Virus genome (UHGV): UHGV-1427736
DNA: 33,069 nucleotides
Strand: one strand, 5' to 3'
Origin: a virus
Below, piece after piece: positions 3,959 to 29,229 of this stretch (its first letter is position 1; the number at the start of each line of letters is the position of its first letter). A program made the translations under genes and the position numbers. The notes under the pieces are model-generated. The model made no database searches, was not told where the DNA came from, and saw only the letters and a list, made by a program, of their open reading frames with translations.

Positions 3959-4378
3959 TCGTGCTTCCACTTCGCCGGAGCGCCTTTTCGCGCCATGTGA
4001 TGAGTTCGGTCAGGCTCATGGGATACAGTTCTGATGGCGGCCAGTGAAATATCACTGCCACATCCGCCATCAGGTCATCGACCGACAGATTTTTCGGGAA
4101 CGTCACTGCACCGAGTTCGGCGACAAAAAACCGACCACCTTACCGGCCAGCGCCACAAGGTCAGGCAGTTCCAGTGCGGCGACTTCCTGCTCGGTCAGCA
4201 TCGGTGCAGTCATGCGCGGCAGCACCTTAATCAGTGCATCGACTTCGGAGTTCGCGACCGCAGCCAGACTGACACCGCGCAGCGTCCCGGCACTGGGTTT
4301 CATCAGCGTGACCTGTTCGATAACCTGCTCACCACGTTTGACCGGATTGTCCAGGGTAATCACATTTTCTTTGTTCAT
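3951..4378 (-). CDS. E': Tail assembly chaperone gpE+E' (programmed -1 frameshift product)
   Basis: Manual translation: after a -1 slip at the TTTTTTG heptamer (minus strand, 4124-4130) the frame continues VAELGAVTFPKNLSVDDLMADVAVIFHWPPSELYPMSLTELITWREKALRRSGSTNE and stops at 3951-3953, overlapping the T start. This matches the conserved E/E' arrangement upstream of the tape measure. Confidence 0.5.
4103..4378 (-). CDS. E: Tail assembly chaperone gpE
   Basis: 91 aa ORF in the P2 E position between FII and T, ending ...KVVGFLSPNSVQ just after the slippery site. Confidence 0.8.
   Translation of the reverse strand: MNKENVITLDNPVKRGEQVIEQVTLMKPSAGTLRGVSLAAVANSEVDALIKVLPRMTAPMLTEQEVAALELPDLVALAGKVVGFLSPNSVQ
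4124..4130 (-). other. Slippery heptamer TTTTTTG for the E/E' -1 ribosomal frameshift
   Basis: Plus strand reads caaaaaa at 4124-4130, i.e. TTTTTTG on the coding strand, 6 codons before the gpE stop. Confidence 0.55.
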
Positions 4379-4434
4379 GGTTTTCTCACTTCTGAATCAG
4401 GGTTAACCGGTCAGCCAGGCTGACCGGATGAAAA

Positions 4435-4953
4435 TCACAGGCCGATATTGCGGCGGTGTTGCTCCAGCCGGTCGACGCCGTTCACCTTCTCAATCATGTT
4501 GATGGTGTCGATTTCGACCAGCTCCTTACCGTCCATCGTCAGCCGGAAATAGGTACAGACCACGGAGATTTTCGACTCGGTGTCTTCTCCCTGTTTACCC
4601 TCGCCGGTATCGATTTCTTTCTGACGTCCACGCATGACCACTTCGACGGCAACCGTTTCGCCGGTATCGTCGCGCTGGTAAGAGCCAGCAAAACGAATCG
4701 GCACGGCATCCACGCCGGTTGCTGCGTAAAGCTCCCAGATAACCGAATCCGGGAAGCCACCGAGCGACCACTCCATTGACAGCGCATCGTCATCAAGGCC
4801 GAGGTCTACCGGTGCGCTGCCGTTCATCCCCGCACCGCGATAGTTTTCGAGCTTACGGGTCAGTTTTGGTAGCGTGACGGACTTCGCAACGCCCTGATAG
4901 CTGTAGCCGTTCAGAAAGACGTTCATTAACTTGAGTTTGCGCGGCATTGCCAT
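4435..4953 (-). CDS. FII: Tail tube protein gpFII
   Basis: 172 aa ORF in the P2 FII position immediately downstream of FI. Confidence 0.85.
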   Translation of the reverse strand: MAMPRKLKLMNVFLNGYSYQGVAKSVTLPKLTRKLENYRGAGMNGSAPVDLGLDDDALSMEWSLGGFPDSVIWELYAATGVDAVPIRFAGSYQRDDTGETVAVEVVMRGRQKEIDTGEGKQGEDTESKISVVCTYFRLTMDGKELVEIDTINMIEKVNGVDRLEQHRRNIGL

Positions 4954-4965
4954 CGGTCAGGCTCC

Positions 4966-6156
4966 TTAATTGCTGTTAACCGAGGTGACCAGATTTGCCA
5001 GGTATTTATCGGTAATACGCTGGCGCAGGGTCAGGTTTTCGAGAGGAGGCACCGGGGTATAGTCGTAGTCGATATACAGTTTTCCGGCCTTGAGGGTTTC
5101 CGCATCGTTGGATTCTTCGCTGAACCAGCAGGTCGCATCCACGATATAGCCGTTTGTTTTCAGCTCACGGAATTTGGCATTGATGCCGTCAACGATGTCG
5201 CGAATCAGCGTTGCGGTGATGGGCTTGTCCACCGCCCACATGTGCGCCTCAGCCATCGTGTCGGCCAGCACCTGCGCGGTGCGGGTGTAGTTTTCAAAGA
5301 GGAACAGCGGGTCATCAGAGCAGGTACGGTTACCCCAGAAGCGGAAACCGTCGCGGCGAATCAGCGTTGTGACGCCAGACTCGTTCAACAGGTCAGCATC
5401 GGTGCCGGACTCCTGCAAATCCCAGAATACAGATGCGCTGATGCCGGTAACACCGTTTACCCCGACGTTGGACAGCGTTTTATGCCAGCCCTGCTCCTGG
5501 TCGATTTTAGCGCGCAGACCCAGCGCACGGGCGGTGGCATACGCGGTGGCGGTGGTACTGGTGACCGTATCCCATGCGAGGAAATCCGGCCAGATGACCA
5601 TCAGCTCACGCTGGCTGAAATTCTGGCGGTAGGCTTTCACCTCGGAAATGGTCTTACAGCCCCATGCGCTGATATATCCGAAAGCGCGCAGCTTCTGACA
5701 GACGGATGCTAGTGCAACAGCCACCTCTTTGGTATCCAGTCCCGGCACACCGAGAATACGCGGTTTAACACCGGTTACCGACTCCGCCGCCAGCAGGGCT
5801 TTCAGTCCGGTGTACTGACCGTTTTCGTCGGTGGTGCCGATGATATTGGAAACGGTCTGCGCAAGTTTCGTTTCCTCGTCGTCGCCGGTGCCGTCTTCCA
5901 CACGCACGACAACGGTGACCGGTTTTGACTGGTCGGCGATGGCCTGCAACGATGCCGCCAGCGTGCCTTTTTTACCGGCCTTTGCAATTGCGCTCTGCAC
6001 ATTGGTAATCAACACCGGTTTATTGAGGGGGAAGGTTTCCGCATCCGCATCGCTGGCCGTGCAGACCATGCCGACAATGGCAGTGGATACGGTGGAAATG
6101 ACGCGGGTGCCGTCGTTAATCTCCAGCACCTGCACGCCATGATGATAGTCACTCAT
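4966..6156 (-). CDS. FI: Contractile tail sheath protein gpFI
   Basis: Sheath-protein-sized ORF in the P2 FI position. The ORF-track start at 6309 gives a 51-aa N-terminal extension; I place the start at the ATG at 6156 (MSDYHHGVQVLE...), which has a GGAG RBS. Confidence 0.85.
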   Translation of the reverse strand: MSDYHHGVQVLEINDGTRVISTVSTAIVGMVCTASDADAETFPLNKPVLITNVQSAIAKAGKKGTLAASLQAIADQSKPVTVVVRVEDGTGDDEETKLAQTVSNIIGTTDENGQYTGLKALLAAESVTGVKPRILGVPGLDTKEVAVALASVCQKLRAFGYISAWGCKTISEVKAYRQNFSQRELMVIWPDFLAWDTVTSTTATAYATARALGLRAKIDQEQGWHKTLSNVGVNGVTGISASVFWDLQESGTDADLLNESGVTTLIRRDGFRFWGNRTCSDDPLFLFENYTRTAQVLADTMAEAHMWAVDKPITATLIRDIVDGINAKFRELKTNGYIVDATCWFSEESNDAETLKAGKLYIDYDYTPVPPLENLTLRQRITDKYLANLVTSVNSN

Positions 6157-6655
6157 CCGTTTAACTCCGTGGTTAATGGGTGCAACTATTTTCTGTTGTG
6201 CAGAGCATGAGACGCTATTTGACCTGGCTGGCCAGTGGATGAAACAACAGATAAAGAAAAGGCGGGCAATCAGCCCGCCAGCCTTGATTTGCACTCTCTC
6301 AATTTCCAACTGACAAAATACGTAGCCAAAACGCTATCAAATCTGACAGCCTGCTTTGAGCGAGAAACAGACATGGATGGCATACAGTGAAAGTAGCCGC
6401 ACAATGAGCATCACTGCAATTCTGAATTCAAGCTCTAATACTATTGAGACCGTATCATACAGTCACTCGCAAAAATTACTTTACCTGAGTGAAAAAATTG
6501 ATTCCAAGCAAAATGAAAACTTGTAATTCATTATTACATGCATAATAATGAATAAAAACTTGAGCTATATAAACCAAAGTTGTTCCGAATAGTCCGTTGA
6601 GACATCACTCGAATTATAGGAATACAAGGTTTTATTTTTATAAGGAATCGCTCCC

Positions 6656-8920
6656 ATGGGTTTGCAAAGCATAAGAATAAAAAACTTACTATCATTTAAT
6701 GATGTAATAATAAATTCCCTAGAGGATGTAAATTGCATTGTAGGGATGAATAATGTTGGCAAATCCAATCTTATGAAAATATTGAAATATTTTTACGACA
6801 AACTTGACGACATAAAAGTAATACCTCCTGATTTTCATTCTAGTTATACTCCTTCAGGGTCAATAACATTGACTTATGATGTAACAAGAATAAAGAGAAT
6901 TGTAATGAACCCTAATAACAATGGTCGCTTTCACAAGCATATTTATAACACTTTATTTAAGCCACAATCATTCATCCGAAAGCCGCAGAAATTCTGTCTT
7001 CCTTTCATATCTCCTTTGGGTTTCCAAAGAAAAAGCACTTATAGCATTACACTCACAATTTCTAAAGATGACTCCGTAACTTGGTCAATTAGCACACCAA
7101 ATGCCCGGCATCTAATTAAAACTCTATTTCCTTTTTTCCATATTGAAACCAGACACATTGACTTATACGACTGGAATAGCATATGGAAAATGCTCAGCAG
7201 TATAAATTCCTTTAATTTCTCTGAAATAAAAAAAGAAGAACTCCTTGAGTTTTTGAATGAGAAAATATCAACTAAGCGGGGTAGTTACAAGAAGTATATA
7301 GAAAGAGTTGAAAATGTAATCCATACTAAACCTTACACCTATAAAGATAAAGTCGTTAATTATCTAAAAATAGTTTTAGATGGCGATATTTTCATAAATA
7401 AAGGTGAAGAACTACATGTTCAGTCGGATGGCACGAACTCTCACAAATATCTTGAAATTATACTTAGCCTATTAATTTCATTAACAAGAACAGAATTTAT
7501 CAATCCAATTATATATATTGATGAACCTGAAATTGGGCTACATCCAAAACTTAGCGAGAACTTTATTGAGAACATAAGCCTGACATATAAAAAGTATGAT
7601 AAAACCCATGAGGAAATTGAGCCTGGAAAATATTCAACACCATATCCAACTCTTATATTTAGCACTCATTCTCCGAGTTTACTAAAACTCACGCTAAAAT
7701 CTTTCTTACATAAACAGCAGGTTTTGCATTTTTCAAAAGAACGTGACAACTCGACCAAAATTTCAAAATTAAACTCTAAATATAATGACATTAGATTTAT
7801 AAATATGCTTAGCGATAATGAGGCCCGTCTATTCTTTAGTGAATACATTCTATTTGTAGAGGGCGCCACAGAAGTTGAATTGTTTAGAAATTATAATCTG
7901 CAAAAGCTGTTTCCAGTACTTAAAAGGTTAGATGTGTATGATTGCGATGAAGTAATGTTGAAAAATATAAACCCCAGCTACTCAAATGCAGCCATCCCAT
8001 TTCTAGTAGTAAAGGATATTGATCAGATTGCCGTTGTTGACTTCGAACATGAACAATTTAAATTTAATTCGAAAGGGAAATCAATTATTAATAAAATCAT
8101 TAAGAGAGATAAACTACACTATTTTTCGACATACCAAAAACCTTTTCTTAACGCAGCAAAATTTCTTTTAAGCCAAGATGAAAGGAAAGTAACATTCAGT
8201 GAAAATGGCCTAAAATTCAGACACTTCAGTATAGGCAGAGTTATAAGCGCAGTTAATTTTTTATCCTCTAAAGATAATGTTTATTATACTTCTACAACGA
8301 TAGAAGGCTCATTGATCAATGAATTCTCTTTAGAGACATTCTCTTTATGGATCATTGACATAGTAATGAGAAGCTTTAATGTAAATAATAAAAACCCTGT
8401 AAAAATGATTAATGCTCTGCTGCAAAAATACGATATTAAAACCCAATCAAAACAACTTTTTCCCAAAATACTTTCAAAATGTGAAACAAATCATAACCTA
8501 CCATTGCGACACATGAGATTATTGAAAATCATTAAAATTAGATATGCTAAAGAAATAATTGATGAGTTTAAAAAAACCATCCCCGACGTAAAAGACCAAG
8601 TTGCTATCTTGCGCCTTATTTTTAGTGGCAAAACAGAAACTCTTGTAAGTATAGAAATGCATTATAAAATTGATCAAAAACCGATACGGCAAGATATATT
8701 GGATTATATCAAAGCATTAAAGTCAGAAAATTTCTCTTTTATGAGTTCTTACATAGGAAAGACTTCTGGATGGGTTACAAGCTTCATTGATTTTAGCCTT
8801 AATCATTATTCAGCCCTAGATAAAGAAAATGTCGAAAAAAAATTCCGCTTGGCTTTTCCTGAAATTTCGCATATCATCGATCATGCTTCTTCTTCGATAG
8901 AAGCTGGAGGGCTCAAATGA
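6656..8920 (+). CDS. OLD-family nuclease: ABC-type ATPase fused to a C-terminal Toprim-like domain
   Basis: 754 aa. Walker A GMNNVGKSN (aa ~30), Walker B/D-loop IIYIDEPEIGLHP, H-loop LIFSTHSPS; then FVEGATEVELF (aa ~400) and VVKDIDQ (aa ~455), consistent with Toprim Glu and DxD motifs. Gene is markedly AT-rich compared with the flanking phage genes. Confidence 0.7.
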   Translation: MGLQSIRIKNLLSFNDVIINSLEDVNCIVGMNNVGKSNLMKILKYFYDKLDDIKVIPPDFHSSYTPSGSITLTYDVTRIKRIVMNPNNNGRFHKHIYNTLFKPQSFIRKPQKFCLPFISPLGFQRKSTYSITLTISKDDSVTWSISTPNARHLIKTLFPFFHIETRHIDLYDWNSIWKMLSSINSFNFSEIKKEELLEFLNEKISTKRGSYKKYIERVENVIHTKPYTYKDKVVNYLKIVLDGDIFINKGEELHVQSDGTNSHKYLEIILSLLISLTRTEFINPIIYIDEPEIGLHPKLSENFIENISLTYKKYDKTHEEIEPGKYSTPYPTLIFSTHSPSLLKLTLKSFLHKQQVLHFSKERDNSTKISKLNSKYNDIRFINMLSDNEARLFFSEYILFVEGATEVELFRNYNLQKLFPVLKRLDVYDCDEVMLKNINPSYSNAAIPFLVVKDIDQIAVVDFEHEQFKFNSKGKSIINKIIKRDKLHYFSTYQKPFLNAAKFLLSQDERKVTFSENGLKFRHFSIGRVISAVNFLSSKDNVYYTSTTIEGSLINEFSLETFSLWIIDIVMRSFNVNNKNPVKMINALLQKYDIKTQSKQLFPKILSKCETNHNLPLRHMRLLKIIKIRYAKEIIDEFKKTIPDVKDQVAILRLIFSGKTETLVSIEMHYKIDQKPIRQDILDYIKALKSENFSFMSSYIGKTSGWVTSFIDFSLNHYSALDKENVEKKFRLAFPEISHIIDHASSSIEAGGLK

Positions 8921-9034
8921 GCTGACGCATGCCGTCACTTGCTCCAGCAAACACTAGCTCGGATTGTCTTGCGTCCGCTAAGCCGCTTTAAGCCTCACGG
9001 GGTGTAAAGATGTTATTGGTATCGAAGAGGAAGC
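8885..9034 (+). ncRNA. Candidate retron msr-msd (non-coding RNA) flanked by a1/a2 inverted repeats
   Basis: GCTTCTTCTTCGAT (8885-8898) and ATCGAAGAGGAAGC (9021-9034) form a 14-bp inverted repeat with one G-U wobble, enclosing ~122 nt that is GC-richer than the flanks. Inside: stem GCTGGAG (8903-8909) / CTCCAGC (8942-8948) around two small hairpins (GCTCA..TGAGC and TGACG..CGTCA). The repeat lies directly upstream of the RT and a2 overlaps its RBS. Confidence 0.3.
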
Positions 9035-9040
9035 TTTTAC

Positions 9041-10138
9041 ATGAAACATAAAATTAATAAAATTAACAATGATTTTTATAAAAATTTTTATCTAAGAGAA
9101 ACATTCTCCGATGATATTATTATGACTCACGGAGTCCCTGAGATTTCCAATGACGATTATAAAAGCATTTCATTAAAGAATAGATTATGTTTCACTATAA
9201 GAAAAAGCTCCCCGCATAAAAAAATACAAGAAAGACTTATAAAAAATTTCCTAGTAAAAGTTCCTCTTAGCTCACCTGCAATTGCCTATCGTAAAAAATT
9301 AAACTATTTGAATTTTCTAGAACCTCATATCCATGGTGAGAACTTTTGTCGAATTGACTTATGTAATTTTTTTCATAACATAAACTATAACTTTGCAAGG
9401 GAGTGTTTCAAATCCTACTTTGAAGATGAATATCTGGTAAATAAAAAAATCAAAGTTATTGATGCATTTTTAAATAGTTTATCTATTGAGATTGTAGTCA
9501 ACAATAAAAAGAAAAAAATATTTCCAATGGGATTCGCCACATCACCTTTCATATCCAATATAATTTTCAGAAAGTTAGATATTTTAATTAAAAGTTTGTG
9601 TGACAAAAGAAGCATCATTTACACTCGTTATGCTGATGATATGCTTTTTTCGAGCTCCGGGAAAGACAAACTTCTTGGAAGTGAACATTTTGACAACGAG
9701 ATATCAACTATTGTCAATACGGCAGGACTGTCCCTCAACAAACATAAAAAAATATTTAAGAAAGGCATAATCTCACTAAACGGCTATGTAATAGAAAATA
9801 AAAATGGAGGGGGAGAGAGAGGGAGTATAAGAATATCTAATGGAAAAATGTATTTAATACGGAAAGCACTAGATAAATTTAAAAAGGGATATTCTAAAGA
9901 GCATATTTGCAAAAAAGTATTTTCTGTTAAATCACCAACTGTCAAGTATAATAACAATGCAGATCAGTTTGTAACGGATTTTTATAATTCACAATTCTCT
10001 AATAAGTTAGCTGGTTATCGTTCATATTTAATATCATTAGTAAAATTTAATGATAAATTCAGATGTTTTCACGAAAACGAAATCACCAAATACTCAGTGA
10101 TTATTGATGAAATTTCTAATGCACTGCTAAAACCCTAG
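9041..10138 (+). CDS. Retron-type reverse transcriptase
   Basis: 365 aa. RT motifs IFPMGFATSPFISNIIFRKLD and IIYTRYADDMLF (YADD box), plus PHIHGENFCRIDLCNFF, align closely with the retron Ec86 RT as I recall it. Size and lack of extra domains fit a retron RT. GAGGAAG RBS. AT-rich. Confidence 0.8.
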   Translation: MKHKINKINNDFYKNFYLRETFSDDIIMTHGVPEISNDDYKSISLKNRLCFTIRKSSPHKKIQERLIKNFLVKVPLSSPAIAYRKKLNYLNFLEPHIHGENFCRIDLCNFFHNINYNFARECFKSYFEDEYLVNKKIKVIDAFLNSLSIEIVVNNKKKKIFPMGFATSPFISNIIFRKLDILIKSLCDKRSIIYTRYADDMLFSSSGKDKLLGSEHFDNEISTIVNTAGLSLNKHKKIFKKGIISLNGYVIENKNGGGERGSIRISNGKMYLIRKALDKFKKGYSKEHICKKVFSVKSPTVKYNNNADQFVTDFYNSQFSNKLAGYRSYLISLVKFNDKFRCFHENEITKYSVIIDEISNALLKP

Positions 10139-10158
10139 CCTTAGAAAGTTAATGTTTT

Positions 10159-10176
10159 GGCCCTAAAGCAAGGGCC
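10159..10176 (+). terminator. Hairpin downstream of the RT gene (possible terminator)
   Basis: GGCCCT-aaagca-AGGGCC stem-loop about 20 nt after the RT stop, but followed by TTAATAG rather than a clean T-run. Confidence 0.3.
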
Positions 10177-10560
10177 TTAATAGTAAAAATAGTTACCAGC
10201 ATAAGTATTCCTTCAACTAATCACACAAATTAACGTTAGCAACGTTCCCTTTTTACACCGTCTGAGCACTAAGCTGTCGGTCATTCTGGTCTACCATACT
10301 ATTATACGTAACATCCAAGAGTGTTCCTGCAAACGGTCGTAGAAAATGCGGGCTTCGCCATTTTCTGGCCGACGCCGGTCTCGTCGAGTTCTTCTGACTG
10401 TTCAAGTGCAAATGCGCCTGTAGGTATCCCTACAAAAGAAACCATCAACTTTTAGATAGTATCTGGCACTCCAACTCCCGCTGTTGACTCGGAGCGGACT
10501 GTCAGATTAGGCTTTACTCTGTACCATAGATACGTTAGCTCACTCCAGAGATCATACAAC

Positions 10561-21662: not shown

Positions 21663-21835
21663 TGTCAGGAGTCCTGAATAGTGATTAGAGGAGTCACATG
21701 TCGGCATCAGTTTCCCGACGATGCGCATCCTCCGCCATCAGTCCCGGATGGCTTATCACTGACACAACAGCACCTTAGCGAATCGCGGGGCGCGACTCAG
21801 TAGCCTTGCCGTGTATTCATCACGGCGAGGTATTC
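21663..21835. promoter_or_regulatory. Divergent promoter region between O and P (expected P2 late promoters)
   Basis: 173-bp intergenic region between divergent O and P starts. Contains the dyad GTCGG-N10-CCGAC at 21700-21719. Late-promoter identity is inferred from P2 genome organisation, not from a matched consensus. Confidence 0.4.
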
Positions 21836-23608
21836 ATGACCATCACCACAGACACCACTCTTTTGCACGACCCGCGTCGTCAGGCGGCGCTGCTGTACTG
21901 GCAGGGGTTTTCCGTGCCGCAGATTGCCGCCATGTTGCAGATGAAACGCCCGACGGTGCAGAGCTGGAAACAGCGCGACGGCTGGGACAGCGTTGCCCCC
22001 ATCAGCCGTGTCGAAATGAGTCTGGAAGCGCGGCTGACCCAGCTCATTATCAAACCGCAGAAAACCGGCGGTGACTTCAAGGAAATTGACCTGCTCGGAC
22101 GCCAGATTGAACGACTGGCACGGGTAAACCGCTACAACCAGACCGGCAACGAGGCAGACCTTAATCCGAACATCGCTAACCGCAACAAAGGCGGGCGACG
22201 CAAACCGAAAAAGAATTTTTTCAGCGACGAGGCTATCGAAAAGCTGGAGCAGATTTTCTTTGAGCAGTCTTTCGAATATCAGTTGCACTGGTATCGCGCC
22301 GGGCTTGAGCACCGCATCCGCGATATCCTGAAATCCCGCCAGATTGGCGCGACGTTTTATTTTTCCCGCGAGGCGCTGCTGCGCGCCCTGAAAACCGGTC
22401 ATAACCAGATTTTTCTGTCGGCCAGTAAAACGCAGGCGTATGTGTTCCGCGAATACATCATCGCCTTTGCCCGGCTGGTTGACGTTGACCTGACCGGTGA
22501 CCCGATTGCCCTGGGCAATAACGGCGCAAAACTGATTTTTCTCGGCACCAACTCCAACACCGCACAGAGCCATAACGGCGACCTGTACGTCGACGAGATT
22601 TTCTGGATCCCGAATTTTCAGGTACTGCGTAAGGTGGCATCAGGTATGGCCTCACAGAGTCACCTGCGCTCGACCTATTTCTCCACCCCGTCCACGCTGG
22701 CGCACGACGCCTACCCGTTCTGGTCGGGGGAACTGTTTAACCGGGGACGCGCCAGCGCCGCTGAACGCGTGGAAATCGACGTCAGTCATAACGCCCTTGC
22801 CGGTGGGCTTCTCTGTGCGGACGGCCAGTGGCGGCAGATTGTCACCATTGAGGACGCGCTGAAAGGCGGCTGCACGCTGTTCGACATTGAGCAGCTCAAA
22901 CGTGAAAACAGCGCCGACGATTTTAAAAACCTGTTCATGTGTGAATTTGTTGACGACAAGGCGTCGGTGTTCCCGTTCGAGGAGCTGCAACGCTGCATGG
23001 TCGACACGCTGGAAGAATGGGAAGACTATGCGCCGTTTGCCGCCAATCCGTTCGGCTCCCGCCCGGTATGGATTGGTTACGACCCGTCACACCGTGGCGA
23101 CAGCGCCGGATGCGTGGTACTGGCACCGCCGGTGGTGGCCGGTGGCAAATTCAGAATACTTGAGCGTCACCAGTGGAAAGGCATGGACTTTGCCACTCAG
23201 GCTGAATCCATCCGCAAACTCACTGAAAAATACAACGTCGAATACATCGGAATTGATGCCACCGGCCTCGGTGTCGGCGTGTTCCAGCTCGTGCGCTCGT
23301 TCTATCCCGCCGCGCGCGATATCCGCTACACACCGGAAATGAAAACCGCAATGGTGCTCAAGGCAAAAGACGTTATCCGTCGTGGCTGTCTGGAATATGA
23401 CGTCAGCGCCACCGACATCACCAGCTCGTTTATGGCTATCCGCAAGACCATGACCAGCAGCGGACGCAGCGCCACCTATGAGGCCAGCCGCAGCGAGGAA
23501 GCCAGCCACGCCGACCTCGCCTGGGCGACCATGCACGCCCTGTTAAATGAGCCACTCACCGCCGGTATCAGCACCTCGCTGACATCCACCATTCTGGAGT
23601 TTTACTGA
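21836..23608 (+). CDS. P: Terminase large (ATPase) subunit gpP
   Basis: Start placed at MTITTDTTLLHDPRRQAALLYWQGFS (ATG at 21836, 590 aa). P2 P position. Confidence 0.9.
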   Translation: MTITTDTTLLHDPRRQAALLYWQGFSVPQIAAMLQMKRPTVQSWKQRDGWDSVAPISRVEMSLEARLTQLIIKPQKTGGDFKEIDLLGRQIERLARVNRYNQTGNEADLNPNIANRNKGGRRKPKKNFFSDEAIEKLEQIFFEQSFEYQLHWYRAGLEHRIRDILKSRQIGATFYFSREALLRALKTGHNQIFLSASKTQAYVFREYIIAFARLVDVDLTGDPIALGNNGAKLIFLGTNSNTAQSHNGDLYVDEIFWIPNFQVLRKVASGMASQSHLRSTYFSTPSTLAHDAYPFWSGELFNRGRASAAERVEIDVSHNALAGGLLCADGQWRQIVTIEDALKGGCTLFDIEQLKRENSADDFKNLFMCEFVDDKASVFPFEELQRCMVDTLEEWEDYAPFAANPFGSRPVWIGYDPSHRGDSAGCVVLAPPVVAGGKFRILERHQWKGMDFATQAESIRKLTEKYNVEYIGIDATGLGVGVFQLVRSFYPAARDIRYTPEMKTAMVLKAKDVIRRGCLEYDVSATDITSSFMAIRKTMTSSGRSATYEASRSEEASHADLAWATMHALLNEPLTAGISTSLTSTILEFY

Positions 23609-24642
23609 TGAGCAAGAAAAAAGGGAAAACACCGCAACCTGCGGCAAAAAAAATGACCGCCAGCGCCCCGAAAATGGAGGCATTCACCTTTGGTGAGCCG
23701 GTGCCGGTACTCGACCGCCGTGACATTCTGGATTACGTCGAGTGCATCAGTAACGGCAGATGGTATGAGCCACCGGTCAGCTTTACCGGTCTGGCAAAAA
23801 GCCTGCGTGCTGCCGTACATCACAGCTCACCGATTTACGTCAAACGTAATATTCTGGCTTCAACGTTTATTCCGCACCCGTGGCTTTCCCAGCAGGATTT
23901 CAGCCGCTTTGTGCTGGATTTTCTGGTGTTCGGTAATGCGTTTCTGGAAAAGCGTTACAGCACCACCGGTAAGGTCATCAGACTGGAAACCTCACCGGCA
24001 AAATATACCCGCCGTGGTGTGGAAGAGGATGTTTACTGGTGGGTGCCGTCCTTCAACGAGCCGACAGCCTTCGCGCCCGGCTCCGTGTTTCACCTGCTGG
24101 AGCCCGATATTAATCAGGAGCTGTACGGCCTGCCGGAATATCTGAGCGCCCTTAACTCTGCCTGGCTGAATGAGTCGGCCACGCTGTTCCGCCGCAAGTA
24201 TTACGAAAACGGCGCACATGCCGGATACATCATGTACGTCACTGATGCCGTGCAGGATCGCAACGATATCGAAATGCTTCGCGAAAACATGGTGAAGTCG
24301 AAAGGCCGCAACAACTTTAAAAACCTGTTTCTCTATGCCCCGCAGGGGAAAGCCGACGGCATTAAAATTATCCCGCTCAGTGAAGTGGCAACGAAGGACG
24401 ATTTTTTTAATATCAAAAAAGCCAGCGCCGCTGACCTGCTGGACGCGCACCGCATCCCCTTTCAGTTGATGGGCGGCAAGCCGGAGAACGTCGGGTCGCT
24501 GGGCGATATTGAGAAAGTGGCAAAGGTCTTTGTCCGCAATGAGCTTATCCCGTTACAGGACAGGATCCGCGAGATAAACGGCTGGCTCGGTCAGGAGGTC
24601 ATCCGCTTTAAAAACTACTCACTGGACACTGACAACGGCTGA
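23608..24642 (+). CDS. Q: Portal protein gpQ
   Basis: 344 aa ORF; ATGA overlap with the P stop, as in P2. Confidence 0.9.
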   Translation: MSKKKGKTPQPAAKKMTASAPKMEAFTFGEPVPVLDRRDILDYVECISNGRWYEPPVSFTGLAKSLRAAVHHSSPIYVKRNILASTFIPHPWLSQQDFSRFVLDFLVFGNAFLEKRYSTTGKVIRLETSPAKYTRRGVEEDVYWWVPSFNEPTAFAPGSVFHLLEPDINQELYGLPEYLSALNSAWLNESATLFRRKYYENGAHAGYIMYVTDAVQDRNDIEMLRENMVKSKGRNNFKNLFLYAPQGKADGIKIIPLSEVATKDDFFNIKKASAADLLDAHRIPFQLMGGKPENVGSLGDIEKVAKVFVRNELIPLQDRIREINGWLGQEVIRFKNYSLDTDNG

Positions 24643-24647
24643 ACATC

Positions 24648-24669
24648 GCCGCCTGCGGGCGGCTTTTTT
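24648..24669 (+). terminator. Rho-independent terminator after Q
   Basis: GCCGCC-tgcg-GGCGGC hairpin followed by TTTTTT, starting 6 nt after the Q stop. Confidence 0.65.
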
Positions 24670-24811
24670 ACACCCCGTCATCACGCCCTCACACGTTCGC
24701 CACTGTACAAAACACCCCGCAGACACACCAACGCCCCGGCAGGCCGACTAAACGCCATCACGACGCGCTCAGACGCTGAAAAAATAAAATCAGCACCACC
24801 GCCAGCGCGCA

Positions 24812-24830
24812 GTGCTTTCCCCGCCTCGCC
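24812..24830. other. P2-type cos site (19-nt cohesive end sequence)
   Basis: gtgctttccccgcctcgcc at 24812-24830 is the reverse complement of the P2 cohesive-end sequence GGCGAGGCGGGGAAAGCAC as I recall it, and sits in the expected position next to Q. Confidence 0.6.
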
Positions 24831-24958
24831 CGCCCGCTTCATGGGTCGGTTTTAATGCAGGTGCACGAACACACTGGAGACGCACCAGTACTGGCGGTGG
24901 TCACGTAGATCCGCCCCTTAAAAGCCATGCAGAATAATGCAACTATTGCGGGCGTCGG

Positions 24959-25378
24959 CTAATCATCTTCTAAAGGTGGAATTTTGATGCCACTAATTAG
25001 CAGTACTTTCCGGTATGCCTCAAAAATAATGTTGTGTGTTTTTTGTAAATCATCGAGCATTTTTTGCCGTCCTGCTGGGGTATCTTTGGCAAAATTATGA
25101 GCGCGAAAAAAATCATGTGCCAAGTAGTTTCTGGCTTTAAGAGCATCTGACACATACTCCAGTGTATCAGCATCCTCCACCATCCTAGACTTCAGTGCGT
25201 AATTCAATTTACCCAGCGTGTATTTATCCATTTCTAAAAACTGTTTTTTCAGCGACTGTATATCTTTCCCCTGACTCATATCATACTCAGTGATAACATT
25301 TATCAACTCAGTCTCCAGTAATTGAGCTGCTTCCGAAGCATAACCAAATTTCCAATAAACCGTATCAAGCGTCACCAT
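24959..25378 (-). CDS. Small hypothetical protein with an Rx4H (HEPN-like) motif; partner of the adjacent HNH nuclease
   Basis: 139 aa, AT-rich, with no P2 counterpart I recognise. Contains ARNYLAHDFF (R-x4-H). GGGGAA RBS 8 nt ahead of the ATG; 91 bp downstream of the HNH gene on the same strand. Confidence 0.5.
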   Translation of the reverse strand: MVTLDTVYWKFGYASEAAQLLETELINVITEYDMSQGKDIQSLKKQFLEMDKYTLGKLNYALKSRMVEDADTLEYVSDALKARNYLAHDFFRAHNFAKDTPAGRQKMLDDLQKTHNIIFEAYRKVLLISGIKIPPLEDD

Positions 25379-25469
25379 ATAATCTATTCCCCATATAACA
25401 AATCACACCCCAAATTAAATCATAATACATAATTAAATCTAACGCCTCGCTGCACCAGAAGAAGTCATG

Positions 25470-26801
25470 TTAACGCTTATCATGGAACTTTTTCCATTTT
25501 GTCATCAACTTTCCAGCATCAAGTTCTACATGATGCGGTTGTAGAGTTTTACCCTCAAACATAGTTTTGTGGATACAATTAATAGAAAAATGAACCGTTA
25601 AGTCCTCTGGATTAATCCCCATTAATCCTTTATCAAACATTCGGTGTAAACTTACTTCAAGTAACAGGCCATTAGATGTGTTATTATTTGCTGATTCTGT
25701 TATTGCTTCAATATGTGCGGCTTCCAATATCCCCTCTGGCAATGGATAGCCAGTAATAGCACATCTGCCATTGAAGTTATCCCAAACACGGCGTTTGAAA
25801 TCAGCTTGATCTCCAGCATGACGGACTTTGTGAGTAACCTCGACTGTTCGTCCTGTAGCACAGGTATCGTTTGCGGCCTTGAAAGGATTAGTTAGACTTT
25901 CATTAATGGCTATATCCGTTCCATCCATGATAAGAGATATTTCATTATTGGGTTCGGATGATGTTAATGGACTTATGTACTGATTGCTTAAAAAAGTCAT
26001 ACTAGATTCTTCATCAGTCGCGAGTTTCCACGCTTCTGATTGTGTCATTGTTAGCAATGCCGTTTGATAAACTTGCTTATTAAAATAACGTTTATCTTTC
26101 TTGTCACTCCCCATATTAATAGTACTAGATTTAATCGGAAGTGTTTTATCACCAATTAGTAGATCACGTATTTCTACAGTCTCTTCTAAGGTATCAATAG
26201 GAGCTACTATAGGGTTAGTCAACGGGTTATCTACATGATCTACGTGGTTGTGTCGTAAATGCCACTCTATAGCACTATCTTTTATATGTATCTCGCAGAC
26301 AGGGCATACAATAAGCCCCATAGATGTTACAGGTAGCTTTTTGCCACCGATTAAGCGTAATGTATTTGCATTCTGGTTATGTACTTTCTTTTGGTTCTGT
26401 GTCAGTACACTACGCTTAGCCTCTAAACGGGTCGGAATCTTAGCAAGATTAAGCGATTTACGGCTCTCTTGTCTCTCAAGATCATAGATCCGAATCCCTG
26501 CTCCAGTTTTGATTTTTGTCCACATAGAGATAGAACTAAGGAATTTATGTCCATGTACTTTTTCATAATCAGCATAAGCTTGCAAAGTAGCAGTGGAACT
26601 ATCTAATCCTTTTTTACGGAGTGCTGTATATTGCTGAAAAAGATTAATAGCATGAGCTGTAATAGAGCGCCTATTCTCTATAATTTGCGTTTTTTTTGCT
26701 GCTTGTTCTGCTTGCAATGCTTTTTGTTCAGGGGTAAGCGACTTCTTTTTGGCTTTCTTGGTTCTTTTCTTACTCAAAGTTTTCTTACTGTTATTGTTCA
26801 T
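25470..26801 (-). CDS. Zinc-finger / HNH (His-Me finger) nuclease with a basic N-terminal tail
   Basis: 443 aa. Lys-rich N-terminus (MNNNSKKTLSKKRTKKAKKKS); C2H2-like CPVCEIHIKDSAIEWHLRHNH; C-terminal HNH motif GRCAITGYPLPEGILEAAHIEAI...NGLLLEVSLHRMFDKGL. AT-rich gene between cos and A. Confidence 0.65.
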   Translation of the reverse strand: MNNNSKKTLSKKRTKKAKKKSLTPEQKALQAEQAAKKTQIIENRRSITAHAINLFQQYTALRKKGLDSSTATLQAYADYEKVHGHKFLSSISMWTKIKTGAGIRIYDLERQESRKSLNLAKIPTRLEAKRSVLTQNQKKVHNQNANTLRLIGGKKLPVTSMGLIVCPVCEIHIKDSAIEWHLRHNHVDHVDNPLTNPIVAPIDTLEETVEIRDLLIGDKTLPIKSSTINMGSDKKDKRYFNKQVYQTALLTMTQSEAWKLATDEESSMTFLSNQYISPLTSSEPNNEISLIMDGTDIAINESLTNPFKAANDTCATGRTVEVTHKVRHAGDQADFKRRVWDNFNGRCAITGYPLPEGILEAAHIEAITESANNNTSNGLLLEVSLHRMFDKGLMGINPEDLTVHFSINCIHKTMFEGKTLQPHHVELDAGKLMTKWKKFHDKR

Positions 26802-26910
26802 TTTGCAAGCCTTTAATCTAATTCATGGAAAGGGGCATTCACTTGCCCTGTATCCAGTAAACTGACATAACACGATATAAGCAAGCTCCGTAATTCTTTC
26901 ATGTTAATCA

Positions 26911-29229
26911 TCAATGGTCCATTGTGAATCCCGGCCACTCATCAGCGACCGGATACGTGAATTTTTTACCGTCGTAATTTACAGTCGCGCCACGCGCCAG
27001 CGCCTCAAGCTCCCATCGCTGCGGCCTGATACCGTTCTGAGCAAGGTCAACGCGGATACGGGTGATTTGCATTCGTTCCGACCTGTTCAGTCTGGCCGAT
27101 GGCGCTATTTCATGCGGTTTTAACGGGCTTCCGTTTCTTTGCTGACGGTTTGGTCTTCTCAGGCCGTGTTTTAATGCGCTTCTGAGCGCCCTCACGACCT
27201 CCGGGTCATTCCATTCGATAACACCGTCATCAACCAGATTAAGCACGGCTGCGGCGTGCTCAGAAGGTGTGGGAGCCGGTAACGAAGTATCACCACCGGT
27301 GAGCTTTCCACAGTTATTGACAGGACTCCGAGGCGCGGCGATGCCGCTTTTTAAAGTCAAAGGCTCAACGACCGGAACTTTCGGCACAATGCGCCAGTCC
27401 GTCGTTCTGGTGATATGAATATGACGCGCGCCGAGATGCGGCGCGTAAATGCCGACCACTCTCTCGACTTCTTCCTCATACTCGTTAACGTCATCCGACG
27501 GGCTACGGGCGACCCTGACAGTCTGACAATCGCGCGGGACATTTGCCCCACCCTGCGCGCTGATATACAACGCAAAATCACCACTGTCTGCGGCGGCGCG
27601 TGCAGCCTCGACGCGTTCGTCAAACTCATCAGCAATGCTGACGCCGCGAGGCAATTTGCGTAGTTCACGGTAAGCCCCCATTGTCGGCAGGCCAACCGTT
27701 TTAAATTGCGGAATGCGCCACGTTGACGCCCATGCGGTAACAGCCGCGGCAGTATCTTTCAGCGGCCTGCCAGTATCGTTATCGAGCTGACCATCCAGTG
27801 CATAGCCGTCGATGTTTTTTGAGATGTATTTCGCGATATATCCCGCAGCACCGCCCCGGTTAAGGTGTTTTGCCTGAAAACGGTTTCGCGCAGCGCCTCT
27901 TTCGTCACCATCCTCTTTGAGCGCATAGCGACGCATGATTTCGATAATCTGGTTACGCTGGCGTGGATTACAAAAAAGCATCATATGCCAGTGCGGCGTT
28001 CCGTCGTGGTGTGGCTCAACGACACGCAAACCGTAGACCTGTAAATCATTATCCTTGAATGCCGTCCGCATCAGGCTCCAGATACGGCAGAGATAACGCT
28101 GCGCATCCTTTGGATTAAATGCCTCATCGTTCCAGCCGTGATTAAGCTGAACGGTTTTACTTTCGCCTTTTCCGACCTGACGTGTCGGGTGATACTTTGA
28201 CGGCGCGGTCAGCGTGATAAACATCCCCACATCACCCTCTGCGGCGGCGTAACGCTCAATACCGGCAATGGTGTTCATCAGCTCCATCCGGCGAATTTCA
28301 GGATTAGAAATACTGCCCATCACCTTACTGATAAGGTCGATGCGCTCGCCGGTTTCCCTGTTTTCAAGGTCACACGATTTAAGAAATTCCAGATTTGCCT
28401 GGCGGCGTGCACGTACATCACGAATGGCATGTTTACTGGCATAAGGAGAACGGTCTTTATTCACCTCCCCGACAGCAATCAGTAACGCCTCATGCCAGCG
28501 CATACGCTGGCCTTTAAGCTGATGAGTCCACCACTCATCGTTAAACAGACGGGCAATGGCAGAATATGCCTGCCTCGTGGTTATCTGTCCTTTACGGTAT
28601 TTTTTCCAGTAGAGCGGGGAAATATTGAAAGCACGTGCAGCGCCAGCAACATGACCATACAGATGATCCTGCGCCTCATCCGTAAACAGCGATTCTTTTT
28701 CGCCATGCGCATCCACCCAGGCATCGCAGAGTTCCTCATACATCATGAAAAGCTGCGATGAGATACGGGCGGCAAACTTTTTCAGCTCCTTGTCATTCAT
28801 CCCCGGCAGACGCGCATAATGGTCACGCTCTGCCAAAAACAGCAACGACGCGTCGGTGTTCATTTCATGGCGCTGATTCACACGCTCAATGCGCGGCCAT
28901 AAACGACGCTGAAAAGTGGATGTGAGGAAATAAAACCCGTGCACCGGGCTTTTATTGCGCCGGATGTAGTCATAGCGTGAAGTAAACAGCGAGCGCAAAA
29001 AGTAAGGCAGGCGGTTAATCGTGGATAAAACACCTTGCACCTGACGCATCTCATCACGTGTAAGGGGTCTTTCGCGCCCGACAGCCTCGCGTGGCGCGTT
29101 CCATGCATAAGCACCGGCAAACGTCTTACCGGTGCCTGCGGCAAATGCTGACGGAGGGACAAAACGCCCGGAGGCTTTAACGGCCATATGAGCCAAAAGC
29201 CTCTGAACAACGCTTGCTGAGTTGCTCAA
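26911..29229 (-). CDS. A: Replication initiation protein gpA (rolling-circle nickase)
   Basis: 772 aa ORF in the P2 A position. A possible alternative start at Met15 (MAVKASGRF, ATG at 29187) would reduce the overlap with the upstream ORF. Confidence 0.85.
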   Translation of the reverse strand: MSNSASVVQRLLAHMAVKASGRFVPPSAFAAGTGKTFAGAYAWNAPREAVGRERPLTRDEMRQVQGVLSTINRLPYFLRSLFTSRYDYIRRNKSPVHGFYFLTSTFQRRLWPRIERVNQRHEMNTDASLLFLAERDHYARLPGMNDKELKKFAARISSQLFMMYEELCDAWVDAHGEKESLFTDEAQDHLYGHVAGAARAFNISPLYWKKYRKGQITTRQAYSAIARLFNDEWWTHQLKGQRMRWHEALLIAVGEVNKDRSPYASKHAIRDVRARRQANLEFLKSCDLENRETGERIDLISKVMGSISNPEIRRMELMNTIAGIERYAAAEGDVGMFITLTAPSKYHPTRQVGKGESKTVQLNHGWNDEAFNPKDAQRYLCRIWSLMRTAFKDNDLQVYGLRVVEPHHDGTPHWHMMLFCNPRQRNQIIEIMRRYALKEDGDERGAARNRFQAKHLNRGGAAGYIAKYISKNIDGYALDGQLDNDTGRPLKDTAAAVTAWASTWRIPQFKTVGLPTMGAYRELRKLPRGVSIADEFDERVEAARAAADSGDFALYISAQGGANVPRDCQTVRVARSPSDDVNEYEEEVERVVGIYAPHLGARHIHITRTTDWRIVPKVPVVEPLTLKSGIAAPRSPVNNCGKLTGGDTSLPAPTPSEHAAAVLNLVDDGVIEWNDPEVVRALRSALKHGLRRPNRQQRNGSPLKPHEIAPSARLNRSERMQITRIRVDLAQNGIRPQRWELEALARGATVNYDGKKFTYPVADEWPGFTMDH

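What the first reader, a model, noticed from the sequence alone, without database searches (positions are those of the whole stretch)
24643..26910. Uncharacterised two-gene module (Zn-finger HNH nuclease + small Rx4H protein) in the P2 cos-to-A variable locus
P2 carries old and tin between cos and the A gene, and in P2-like prophages this locus is a known hotspot for exchangeable anti-phage cargo. Here it holds two co-oriented AT-rich genes (443 aa and 139 aa, 91 bp apart) set in GC-richer P2 backbone; neither resembles old or tin. The combination of a lysine-rich tail, a C2H2-like finger, an HNH nuclease and a small possible HEPN partner is not one I can assign to a named defence family. This is the best candidate in the window for an undescribed defence or abortive-infection system.
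Basis: partly seen in the sequence, partly recalled or inferred. Interest (0 to 1): 0.8.

Follow-up and report, generated by a model that had tools for sequence, protein, structure and literature searches.

The report
Two separate cargo genes in P2 hotspot
Between the packaging site and the replication gene of a P2-type prophage sit two foreign, untested genes, a zinc-finger HNH DNA nuclease and a small HEPN-like protein. They look like anti-phage cargo, but they travel independently of each other and do not form one new two-gene system.

Summary
Two co-oriented AT-rich ORFs lie between an exact P2 cos site and gene A: 443 aa at 25470-26801(-) and 139 aa at 24959-25378(-), 91 bp apart.

ORF443 has a Lys-rich tail, long helices, a conserved C-x2-C-x11-H-x4-H finger and a C-terminal HNH_2 domain with an invariant H/N/H triad. 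ORF139 is an all-alpha protein with an invariant RNxLxH motif. It is a homologue of phage PSP3 gp38.

PADLOC assigns neither protein to a named system. However, the exact arrangement is already listed, untested, in Rousset et al. 2022 Table S5A as "HNH_2 + hypothetical".

The two-gene-module reading is not supported:
- ORF443 relatives occur alone in five other contexts, beside Gabija, PARIS or a TIR gene, and share no conserved neighbour.
- ORF139 relatives occur without ORF443 in at least seven other contexts, mostly P2-like hotspots, and carry their own conserved 5' region.

The best reading is two independent single-gene cassettes. One is a methylase-less, restriction-like HNH nuclease. 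The other is a solo HEPN-like candidate abortive-infection RNase, analogous to HepS. The functions are inferred, not shown. I rate this a new variant of known kinds, of moderate interest.

The parts
24643..24958 (.). GC-rich P2 backbone spacer that holds cos. It is not part of the cargo. A terminator-like hairpin follows the portal gene at 24648-24663(+).
   Evidence: About 230-260 bp from 24643 match sequenced P2-like phages at 90-94%.
24812..24830 (-). cos cohesive-end sequence GGCGAGGCGGGGAAAGCAC
   Evidence: Exact match, with 0.02 expected by chance. The query sequence was recalled from memory as the P2 cos end.
24959..25378 (-). ORF139, a member of the PSP3 gp38 family. It is a small all-alpha protein and a candidate solo HEPN-like RNase.
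   Evidence: AF2 gives pLDDT 90.7 and five helices. It is 72% identical to PSP3 gp38. It matches phrog_12893 at 3e-86. The family has 1963 cluster representatives.
25115..25132 (-). RNYLAH (aa 83-88), an Rx4H motif of HEPN type
   Evidence: Translation. Invariant in 30 homologues. In 62 diverse homologues N84 and H88 are invariant and R83 and L86 are at least 90% conserved.
25379..25469 (-). 91-bp spacer. About 77-85 bp nearest ORF139 belong to the ORF139 cassette's own conserved 5' region. The junction with the ORF443 cassette lies at about 25440-25460.
   Evidence: The alignment of five contexts shows conservation starting at GCAGCGAGGCGTTAGA. The ST131-type match to the window ends at 25455 (H33). 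A weak terminator-like hairpin lies at 25459..25438(-).
25470..26801 (-). ORF443, a stand-alone zinc-finger/coiled-coil HNH_2 nuclease
   Evidence: It matches phrog_20585 at 4e-181. [quoted passage not shown]
25611..25763 (-). HNH_2 (PF13391) core, aa 347-397: C347, EAAHIE (H363), NNNTSNG (N377), LHRMFD (H386)
   Evidence: It aligns with the HNH endonuclease 6yex_A at E 9e-6.
26244..26306 (-). C2H2-like zinc finger, aa 166-186 (C-x2-C-x11-H-x4-H)
   Evidence: There are weak profile matches to C2H2 fingers such as ZNF622 and ZNF524, and some family members match zf-C2H2 Pfam families.
26373..26732 (-). Long helical (coiled-coil-like) region, aa 24-143
   Evidence: AF2 predicts helices at 24-63, 68-87, 91-116 and 125-143. 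pLDDT is 84-95 across aa 21-110 and falls to 56-77 beyond.
26733..26801 (-). Lys-rich N-terminal tail, aa 1-23
   Evidence: The AF2 model is disordered here.
26802..26910 (-). Upstream region of ORF443. A weak promoter-like site (TTCACA-16-TAACAT) at 26928..26901 overlaps the end of gene A.
   Evidence: This is a consensus match only. The number of promoter-like sites in the region is no higher than in shuffles.

Best explanation
The interval is the cos-proximal gpA-gpQ cargo hotspot of a P2-like prophage. It holds two independently mobile, foreign single-gene cassettes, not one two-gene system.

Cassette 1 is ORF443, a methyltransferase-less, restriction-like DNA endonuclease. A C-terminal HNH_2 (His-Me finger) domain with H363, N377 and H386 would do the cutting. 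An N-terminal Lys-rich tail, long helices and a C2H2-type zinc finger would bind or select nucleic acid. I infer that it attacks incoming phage DNA on its own, in the manner of prophage-borne McrA or type IV HNH enzymes, while sparing P2 and host DNA.

Cassette 2 is ORF139, of the PSP3 gp38 family. It is a minimal all-alpha protein with an invariant RNxLxH motif. I infer that it is a solo HEPN-type RNase that rests as an inactive oligomer. A component of an infecting phage would switch it on, and it would then cleave tRNA or other RNA and abort the infection, as HepS and Tha do.

Shown here: the gene structures, the conserved motifs, the independent distributions and the defence-island neighbourhoods. 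Inferred: nuclease and RNase activity, the triggers, and anti-phage function.
For: Independence:
- ORF443 homologues at 28-80% identity sit alone in five other contexts: a Citrobacter island beside GajA/GajB, a Klebsiella island, a lambdoid prophage beside a TIR gene, a Pectobacterium integrative element, and an E. coli island beside AriA/AriB.
- tblastn finds no ORF139 in the first two of these; in the other three the called genes include none of ORF139's size. blastp finds no conserved neighbour across all of them.
- ORF139 homologues lie in P2-like hotspots with other cargo: PDC-S31 plus PDC-M18 in ST131; DinI plus a 243-aa gene in Salmonella; a DUF262 gene in Kosakonia; DUF3850; DUF7415 only in K. 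aerogenes; and phage PSP3 gp38.
- In complete E. coli genomes, 31 carry ORF139-like DNA and 12 carry ORF443.
- ORF139 carries its own conserved 5' region. The junction is at about 25455.
- In strain W13-16, ORF443 is split by IS3 while ORF139 is intact.

ORF443 chemistry:
- All 45 family members match HNH_2.
- The H/N/H residues are invariant.
- The closest solved relative is the HNH endonuclease 6yex.
- The weak best hits in NCBIfam and PADLOC are restriction enzymes.
- There is no methyltransferase in the locus.

ORF139 as HEPN:
- The motif is conserved across 62 diverse members of a family with 1963 clusters.
- The AF2 model is a confident helical bundle.
- The sub-threshold HMM hits of family members concentrate on HEPN models: HepT-like at 1.5e-5, RiboL-PSP, Apea, PD-T4-2_B, Cas13a/b, Cas13-ApeA and Csx1/Csm6.

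Precedents: the solo-HEPN abortive-infection protein HepS (PMC13043305) and the hotspot's established role in defence (PMC9122126; PMC9519451).
Against: - There is no functional data for either gene.
- ORF139 itself reaches no Pfam HEPN threshold.
- Profile searches of PDB sequences find no HEPN or HepS match.
- The ORF443 model is poor, with pLDDT 62.8 and the HNH part at 36-60. Its fold search was uninformative.
- The N-terminal half of ORF443 has no recognised modified-base reader, so a type IV-like mode is only a guess.
- In this arrangement the gp37-like gene and the hairpin that usually precede ORF139 are missing. ORF139 may therefore be co-transcribed with ORF443 here, and the two could cooperate secondarily.
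- Only about a dozen neighbourhoods were inspected.
Confidence: 0.55

Rival explanations
1. One reading: ORF443 and ORF139 form one two-component defence system. For example, the HNH nuclease senses or cuts phage DNA while the HEPN RNase acts as a second effector, or one regulates the other.
For: - The genes are co-oriented, 91 bp apart and of similar low GC.
- They are always together in the 12 E. coli genomes and the one Enterobacter genome that carry ORF443.
- The hairpin and gp37-like gene that precede ORF139 elsewhere are absent here, which allows read-through.
- In Kosakonia an ORF139 homologue sits beside a DUF262 gene that matches NsnA and PD-T4-2_A. That echoes PD-T4-2, which combines DUF262 and HEPN (PMC10952713). 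ORF139-type proteins may therefore pair with different nucleases or NTPases.
Against: - All co-occurrences are one near-identical arrangement (99-100% nt), so they count as one event.
- None of five other ORF443-family contexts has ORF139, and no other ORF139-family context examined has ORF443.
- ORF139 is essentially the sole cargo in K. aerogenes prophages.
- ORF139 is kept where ORF443 is broken by IS3.
Confidence: 0.15
2. ORF139 (gp38) is not a defence gene. It would instead be a lineage-specific accessory of PSP3/186-type phages, linked to gp37 and to cos, with a role in the phage's own biology such as regulation, counter-defence or packaging. Only ORF443 would then be exchangeable defence cargo.
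For: - ORF139 is the last gene before cos in six of the seven P2-like arrangements examined, the window and PSP3 included.
- The DNA homology runs without a break from the portal gene through cos into ORF139 (H33).
- A conserved 69-aa gp37-like gene precedes it in PSP3, Salmonella, E. coli 06-3462 and K. aerogenes.
- No defence HMM matches it convincingly.
Against: - Its GC is about 0.37-0.39 in a 0.55 backbone.
- It is present in only 31 of about 2156 E. coli genomes with P2-type cos flanks.
- The family has 1963 clusters, including members away from P2 phages in islands with PIN toxins, ArdC, GmrSD_N, HsdR, DUF4145 and PDC-S52 genes.
- An invariant RNxLxH points to catalysis rather than a structural or packaging role.
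Confidence: 0.2
3. ORF443 is a selfish or phage-service HNH enzyme, not a defence enzyme. It would be either a homing endonuclease or an HK97-gp74-type HNH factor that helps terminase cut cos.
For: It is an HNH protein encoded next to cos, the portal gene and the terminase gene. HNH homing endonucleases are common in phages (general knowledge).
Against: - P2 and nearly all P2-like prophages lack it. Only 12 of 2156 E. coli genomes with the flank carry it.
- It is AT-rich and foreign.
- Its relatives sit in chromosomal islands beside Gabija, PARIS and TIR genes and in an integrative element, not inside conserved phage genes.
- It belongs to HNH_2, the family of restriction enzymes (PMC5714182). 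At 443 aa it is far larger than the packaging HNH factors, which are about 100-120 aa (size from memory).
Confidence: 0.07

Closest known systems
Type IV / McrA-like HNH restriction endonucleases: VcaM4I EVE-HNH (identity of PDB 6yex from memory), ScoMcrA-type phosphorothioate-dependent enzymes (NCBIfam PT-DNA_restrict), and EcoKMcrA of prophage e14 (from memory)
   Same: Each is a single polypeptide with a C-terminal HNH nuclease and the same H...N...H core. ORF443 aligns to 6yex_A at E 9e-6. There is no partner methyltransferase, and the gene is carried on mobile elements or prophages.
   Different: ORF443 has no EVE, SRA, SBD or other known modified-base reader. It has a Lys-rich tail, about 120 aa of long helices and a C2H2-type finger instead. 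It scores 33 bits against the PT-DNA_restrict cutoff of 180. Dependence on DNA modification is untested.
HepS (Gifsy-1 prophage solo-HEPN abortive-infection anticodon nuclease; PMC13043305) and Tha (S. aureus prophage tail-activated HEPN; PMC11087260)
   Same: Each is a small prophage-encoded protein with an Rx4-6H motif and no obligatory partner or antitoxin. The expected logic is a resting oligomer activated by a phage structural protein.
   Different: There is no detectable sequence similarity. The profiles of ORF139's family find no HEPN or HepS chain among PDB sequences. The HEPN fold of ORF139 is not proven. The trigger, target and oligomeric state are unknown.
PD-T4-2 (DUF262 protein + HEPN protein; Vassallo et al. 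2022, domains as tabulated in PMC10952713)
   Same: Some ORF139-family members weakly match PD-T4-2_B (E 0.001-0.003). A Kosakonia P2-like prophage pairs an ORF139 homologue with a DUF262 gene that matches PD-T4-2_A at 1.4e-19.
   Different: The window has no DUF262 gene. ORF139 itself does not match PD-T4-2_B, and its neighbour here is an HNH_2 nuclease.
P2 gpA-gpQ hotspot cargo (old/tin and the 169 catalogued systems of Rousset et al. 2022)
   Same: The position is the same, and the cargo is likewise short and AT-rich. This exact pair is listed in their Table S5A as 'HNH_2 + hypothetical'.
   Different: It is not among the systems they cloned and tested: Table S2 has no HNH entry. It is not homologous to old or tin.

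Membership tests
HNH_2 (PF13391) His-Me finger nucleases (ORF443) | Profile score above Pfam's gathering threshold | tested here: met
   42.3 bits against a cutoff of 21, over aa 347-397. All 45 aligned homologues match.
HNH_2 (PF13391) His-Me finger nucleases (ORF443) | Conserved catalytic H...N...H residues | tested here: met
   H363, N377 and H386 are invariant in 45 sequences. They align with the ASHIKP...HNG...DHLFD segment of 6yex_A.
HNH_2 (PF13391) His-Me finger nucleases (ORF443) | Metal-dependent nuclease activity | not testable with these tools
   Needs biochemistry.
Type IV modification-dependent restriction endonuclease (ORF443) | A recognised modified-base reader domain (EVE, SRA, SBD, YTH, ASCH or the McrA N-domain) fused to the nuclease | tested here: not met
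   The N-terminal 330 aa have no such Pfam or NCBIfam match. A C2H2-like finger and helices are found instead.
Type IV modification-dependent restriction endonuclease (ORF443) | No cognate methyltransferase in the locus | tested here: met
   Only two ORFs lie between cos and gene A, and neither is a methyltransferase.
Type IV modification-dependent restriction endonuclease (ORF443) | Cleavage depends on modified DNA | not testable with these tools
   Needs plaque assays with modified and unmodified phage DNA.
HEPN superfamily (ORF139) | Rx4-6H motif with a polar residue after R, conserved across the family | tested here: met
   RNYLAH at aa 83-88. It is invariant in 30 homologues. In 62 diverse homologues N84 and H88 are invariant and R83 and L86 are at least 90% conserved.
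HEPN superfamily (ORF139) | All-alpha up-and-down helical bundle that specifically resembles solved HEPN domains | tested here: inconclusive
HEPN superfamily (ORF139) | Significant profile match to a curated HEPN family | tested here: inconclusive
   ORF139 itself has none. One family member matches HepT-like at 1.5e-5. Other weak hits cluster on RiboL-PSP, Apea, PD-T4-2_B, Cas13 and Csx1/Csm6.
HepS-type solo-HEPN abortive-infection proteins (ORF139) | No conserved functional partner gene | tested here: inconclusive
   The neighbouring large genes differ in every context. A 69-aa gp37-like gene often lies upstream, separated by a hairpin, but it is absent here and in Kosakonia.
HepS-type solo-HEPN abortive-infection proteins (ORF139) | Sequence homology to HepS | tested here: not met
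   Profile searches of all PDB chain sequences found no HEPN or HepS chain at E up to 10. This assumes the HepS structure is in that copy of the PDB.
PD-T4-2 (DUF262 + HEPN) | An adjacent DUF262 (PD-T4-2_A) gene and a B protein that matches the model | tested here: not met
   There is no DUF262 gene in the interval. ORF139 does not match PD-T4-2_B. Only 2-3 distant family members match, at E about 0.001-0.003.
PD-Lambda-3 | Both components present and matched | tested here: not met
   The only hit is a 15-bit partial match to PD-Lambda-3_B (E 0.0022). ORF443 matches no PD-Lambda-3 model.
HEPN-MNT toxin-antitoxin | An adjacent minimal nucleotidyltransferase antitoxin | tested here: not met
   No such gene is next to ORF139 here or in any context inspected.
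P2 Old / Tin | Homology to Old (ATPase-TOPRIM) or Tin | tested here: not met
   Neither protein has an Old or Tin hit in PADLOC.

The most novel reading that the evidence does not exclude
ORF139 may represent a large, unnamed family of minimal solo immune RNases. The family has about 2000 clusters at 50% identity, has no Pfam model, and includes gp38 of phage PSP3. Its members would have their own phage trigger. Separately, ORF443 may define a new stand-alone defence nuclease class in which a C2H2 zinc finger and a coiled coil, rather than a modified-base reader, select the target for an HNH_2 domain. A bolder version is that ORF139-type proteins are interchangeable partners of different nucleases or NTPases (HNH_2 here, DUF262 in Kosakonia).
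Probability: 0.3. Interest if true: 0.6.

Novelty: new variant of a known kind. Interest (0 to 1): 0.4.

Why it matters
The P2 cos-proximal hotspot has repeatedly yielded working anti-phage systems, and the genes there that remain unannotated are worth triaging.

This locus offers two compact single-gene candidates that current defence annotation misses. The first is an HNH nuclease with an unusual zinc-finger and coiled-coil front end. Its relatives sit beside Gabija, PARIS and TIR genes. The second is a 139-aa protein with a HEPN-type motif. It belongs to a very large uncurated family and is present in a classical phage, as PSP3 gp38.

Knowing that the two genes are separable changes the experiment. 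They should be cloned and mutated individually, not only as a pair. If both work, the gain is incremental: two more members of known strategies, restriction-like DNA cleavage and solo-HEPN abortive infection. It would not be a new principle.

Tried and rejected
- Named-system assignment. PADLOC, Pfam, NCBIfam and PHROGs gave only generic HNH models, a 15-bit PD-Lambda-3_B hit and two function-unknown PHROGs.
- Structure of ORF443. The AF2 model was poor (pLDDT 62.8). Foldseek against the PDB gave only noise, with E of 1.4 or worse.
- Sequence-profile searches of PDB chains with the 30- and 62-sequence ORF139 alignments. There was no meaningful hit.
- RNA elements. Rfam found nothing in 24400-27100 at E up to 1, and nothing in the whole window at gathering thresholds. 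There are no tRNAs.
- Promoters. The consensus scan found no more sites than in shuffles. Transcription units are therefore unresolved.
- Literature. I looked for either protein among tested systems. Accessions or sequence motifs were absent from the held supplements of Vassallo 2022 and DefensePredictor 2026. Some of those files are truncated, so absence is not proof. Brenes & Laub 2025, which I recall from memory, is not in the library.
- Rejected readings: old/tin homology; a type II restriction-modification system (no methylase); HEPN-MNT (no MNT gene); and a packaging or homing HNH (wrong distribution and size).
Full report
**The observation**

ORF443 lies at 25470..26801 on the minus strand, ORF139 at 24959..25378 on the minus strand, and 91 bp separate them. 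GC falls to 0.35-0.40 between about 25000 and 27000, against 0.52-0.58 on both sides.

The flanks are P2 backbone. Terminase ATPase is at 21806..23608(+), portal at 23608..24642(+), and replication endonuclease A at 26911..29229(-). An exact copy of the 19-nt sequence I recalled as the P2 cohesive end lies at 24812..24830. The left 316 bp of the reported interval are therefore cos backbone, and the foreign cargo runs from about 24950 to 26905.

The window is 100% identical to a prophage of E. coli UPEC85.

The cargo swap is real. 76 sequenced P2-like phages and 2156 of 5426 complete E. coli genomes match only the cos-side flank. Only 12 genomes carry the cargo.

**ORF443**

- **Nuclease domain.** Pfam finds HNH_2 (PF13391) at aa 347-397, at 42.3 bits against a cutoff of 21. 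All 45 aligned homologues match it.
- **Conserved residues.** C347, the EAAHIE segment (H363), NNNTSNG (N377), H386 and H404 are invariant. C166, C169, H181 and H186 are at least 90% conserved and form a C-x2-C-x11-H-x4-H finger.
- **Finger type.** The family profile weakly matches classical C2H2 fingers in the PDB. A few members match zf-C2H2 Pfam families.
- **Closest solved relative.** This is the HNH endonuclease 6yex_A, at E 9e-6. From memory, 6yex is the EVE-HNH type IV enzyme VcaM4I.
- **Other weak hits.** NCBIfam's best hit is the phosphorothioate-dependent restriction enzyme family, far below its cutoff. PADLOC gives only generic HNH and restriction models.
- **Family background.** A published classification places HNH_2 among restriction enzymes such as AlwI, BbrI and HphI (PMC5714182).
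- **N-terminal half.** It has a Lys-rich tail and confidently predicted long helices. The whole-protein model is poor, at pLDDT 62.8, and its fold search was uninformative.

**ORF139**

- **Family match.** No Pfam family matches. In 30 homologues, R83, N84, L86 and H88 (RNxLxH) are invariant, as are an N-terminal EAAQLLE segment (E16-E22), E24 and L25.
- **Fold.** AlphaFold gives a confident five-helix all-alpha model, pLDDT 90.7.
- **Family size.** A profile search of 1.84 billion representative proteins finds 1963 clusters at E of 1e-3 or better. In 62 diverse members the motif persists: N84 and H88 are invariant, and R83 and L86 are at least 90% conserved.
- **HMM hits.** The sub-threshold hits of family members fall strikingly often on HEPN models: HepT-like at 1.5e-5, RiboL-PSP, Apea, DUF4145, PD-T4-2_B, Cas13a/b, Cas13-ApeA and Csx1/Csm6.

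I take ORF139 to be a HEPN-type protein with fair but not full confidence.

**Are the two genes one module?**

ORF443-family genes occur alone in five other, unrelated settings:
- in Citrobacter, beside a resolvase and GajA/GajB;
- in a Klebsiella island;
- at 77% identity, in a lambdoid prophage beside a TIR gene;
- in a Pectobacterium integrative element with a relaxase;
- in an E. coli island beside AriA/AriB.

tblastn finds no ORF139 within 5 kb in the Citrobacter and Klebsiella loci. In the other three the called genes include none of ORF139's size. An all-against-all blastp of the immediate neighbours in all six contexts finds no shared partner.

ORF139-family genes lie in P2-like gpA-gpQ hotspots with quite different company:

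| Context | Neighbouring cargo |
|---|---|
| ST131-type E. coli | PDC-S31 (DUF2971) plus PDC-M18A/B |
| Salmonella | DinI plus a 243-aa gene |
| Kosakonia | a DUF262 gene matching NsnA and PD-T4-2_A |
| E. coli 06-3462 | DUF3850 |
| Klebsiella aerogenes | only a small DUF7415 gene |
| phage PSP3 | ORF139 homologue is gp38, the last gene before cos |

Further evidence points the same way:
- Among complete E. coli genomes, 31 carry ORF139-like DNA and 12 carry ORF443.
- The 12 co-occurrences, and one in Enterobacter, are one near-identical arrangement. They count as a single event.
- In strain W13-16, ORF443 is split by an IS3 element while ORF139 is intact.
- About 80 bp upstream of ORF139 are conserved across all five contexts aligned. 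Homology to the ST131 arrangement stops at window position 25455, 15 bp from the ORF443 stop codon.

Elsewhere a 69-aa gp37-like gene and a GC-rich hairpin precede ORF139. Here both are missing, and ORF443 occupies their place. The simplest reading is that an HNH cassette was inserted next to a resident gp38-type cassette.

**Mechanism I commit to**

ORF443 is a stand-alone, methylase-less, restriction-like DNA endonuclease. Its zinc-finger and helical front end selects the target, and its HNH_2 domain cuts. Its repeated placement beside Gabija, PARIS and TIR genes and in prophage cargo sites argues for an anti-phage role.

ORF139 is a solo HEPN-type RNase that stays inactive until a phage component switches it on and then aborts the infection. 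The model is HepS of Gifsy-1. HepS is a single HEPN protein with no partner. It forms a resting tetramer, is triggered by siphovirus tail-tip proteins, and cleaves tRNA anticodon loops (PMC13043305).

The domains, motifs, distributions and neighbourhoods are shown here. The enzymatic activities, the triggers and protection itself are inferred.

**Rivals**

- **A true HNH-plus-HEPN pair (0.15).** The close spacing, the possible read-through, and the Kosakonia ORF139-DUF262 pairing that echoes PD-T4-2 (PMC10952713) keep this alive.
- **ORF139 as a PSP3/186-lineage accessory with a phage-internal role (0.2).** Its fixed position next to cos and its link to gp37 favour this. Its low GC, its rarity in E. 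coli P2-like prophages, and a huge family that extends to non-phage islands argue against it.
- **ORF443 as a homing or packaging HNH (about 0.07).** The distribution, the family and the size all make this unlikely.

**Novelty**

The hotspot and its defensive role are established (PMC9122126; PMC9519451). This exact pair is already listed in Rousset et al. Table S5A as "HNH_2 + hypothetical" (WP_023304084 + WP_023281582), but it is not among their tested systems.

I found neither protein in the held supplements of two later screens. Those files are partly truncated.

Both genes therefore remain uncharacterised, and each falls within a known strategy: an HNH restriction-like nuclease and a solo HEPN protein. 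I rate the locus a new variant of known kinds, with moderate interest.

**In passing**

The window's second AT-rich island, about 6400-10200 at GC near 0.30, sits where I recall P2's Z/fun hotspot. It carries a type I-B retron, with an ATPase-TOPRIM gene at 1.6e-210 and a reverse transcriptase at 2.7e-106. This prophage therefore carries known defence cargo at its other hotspot as well.

Noticed in passing
window 6400-10200 (ORFs 6656..8920 + and 9041..10138 +): A second AT-rich island (GC about 0.30) sits where I recall P2's Z/fun hotspot lying. It encodes a type I-B retron. The 754-aa protein matches PADLOC ATPase-Toprim_I-B at 1.6e-210, and the 365-aa protein matches RT_I-B at 2.7e-106 and Pfam RVT_1. 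No Rfam msr/msd match reached the gathering threshold, so the ncRNA was not located.
   Followed up: partly
L033 (phage PSP3 NC_005340) 4160-4369 and 4501-4920; L011 5660-5869; L019 5558-5764; L030 4627-4830: ORF139 is the homologue of PSP3 gp38. A conserved 69-aa gp37-like gene (MHRLPGEIPQHKTK...) lies just upstream of ORF139 homologues in PSP3, Salmonella, E. coli 06-3462 and K. aerogenes, separated from them by a GC-rich hairpin. It is degraded in ST131 strains and absent from this window and from Kosakonia. Its function is unknown.
   Followed up: partly
ORF139 family: The small RNxLxH protein family has 1963 cluster representatives at E of 1e-3 or better (646 at 1e-10 or better) in a library of 1.84 billion proteins, yet it has no Pfam model.
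   Followed up: partly
L020 (E. coli W13-16 NZ_CP080235) 3328-5995: In a degraded copy of the same prophage, an IS3-family element splits the ORF443 gene while ORF139 stays intact.
   Followed up: no
L014 6001-8409 (Kosakonia radicincitans P2-like prophage): An ORF139 homologue is followed by a 592-aa DUF262 (GmrSD_N) gene that matches NsnA (1.3e-32) and PD-T4-2_A (1.4e-19). This HEPN-like plus DUF262 pairing is reminiscent of PD-T4-2. A distant homologue, L028, also has a GmrSD_N gene about 3 kb away.
   Followed up: partly
L017 5084-7081 (metagenome contig): A 153-aa distant ORF139 homologue sits in a tight run of small genes: DUF4145 (a weak PD-T7-4 match), a 123-aa ORF, and DUF6988 (PDC-S52, 1.8e-21), with a DUF5677 gene nearby. 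This may be a cluster of small helical defence-candidate proteins.
   Followed up: no
L002 6148-8647 (E. coli ST131-type P2 prophage): The common ST131 cargo beside the ORF139 homologue consists of PADLOC candidate systems PDC-S31 (DUF2971) and PDC-M18A/B.
   Followed up: no
Rousset et al. 2022 Table S5A and DefensePredictor supplement: A different P2-hotspot arrangement is also labelled 'HNH_2 + hypothetical' (WP_087902667, 316 aa, + WP_087902671). DefensePredictor lists its HNH protein as a predicted novel defence gene. I could not check whether its partner is related to ORF139.
   Followed up: no
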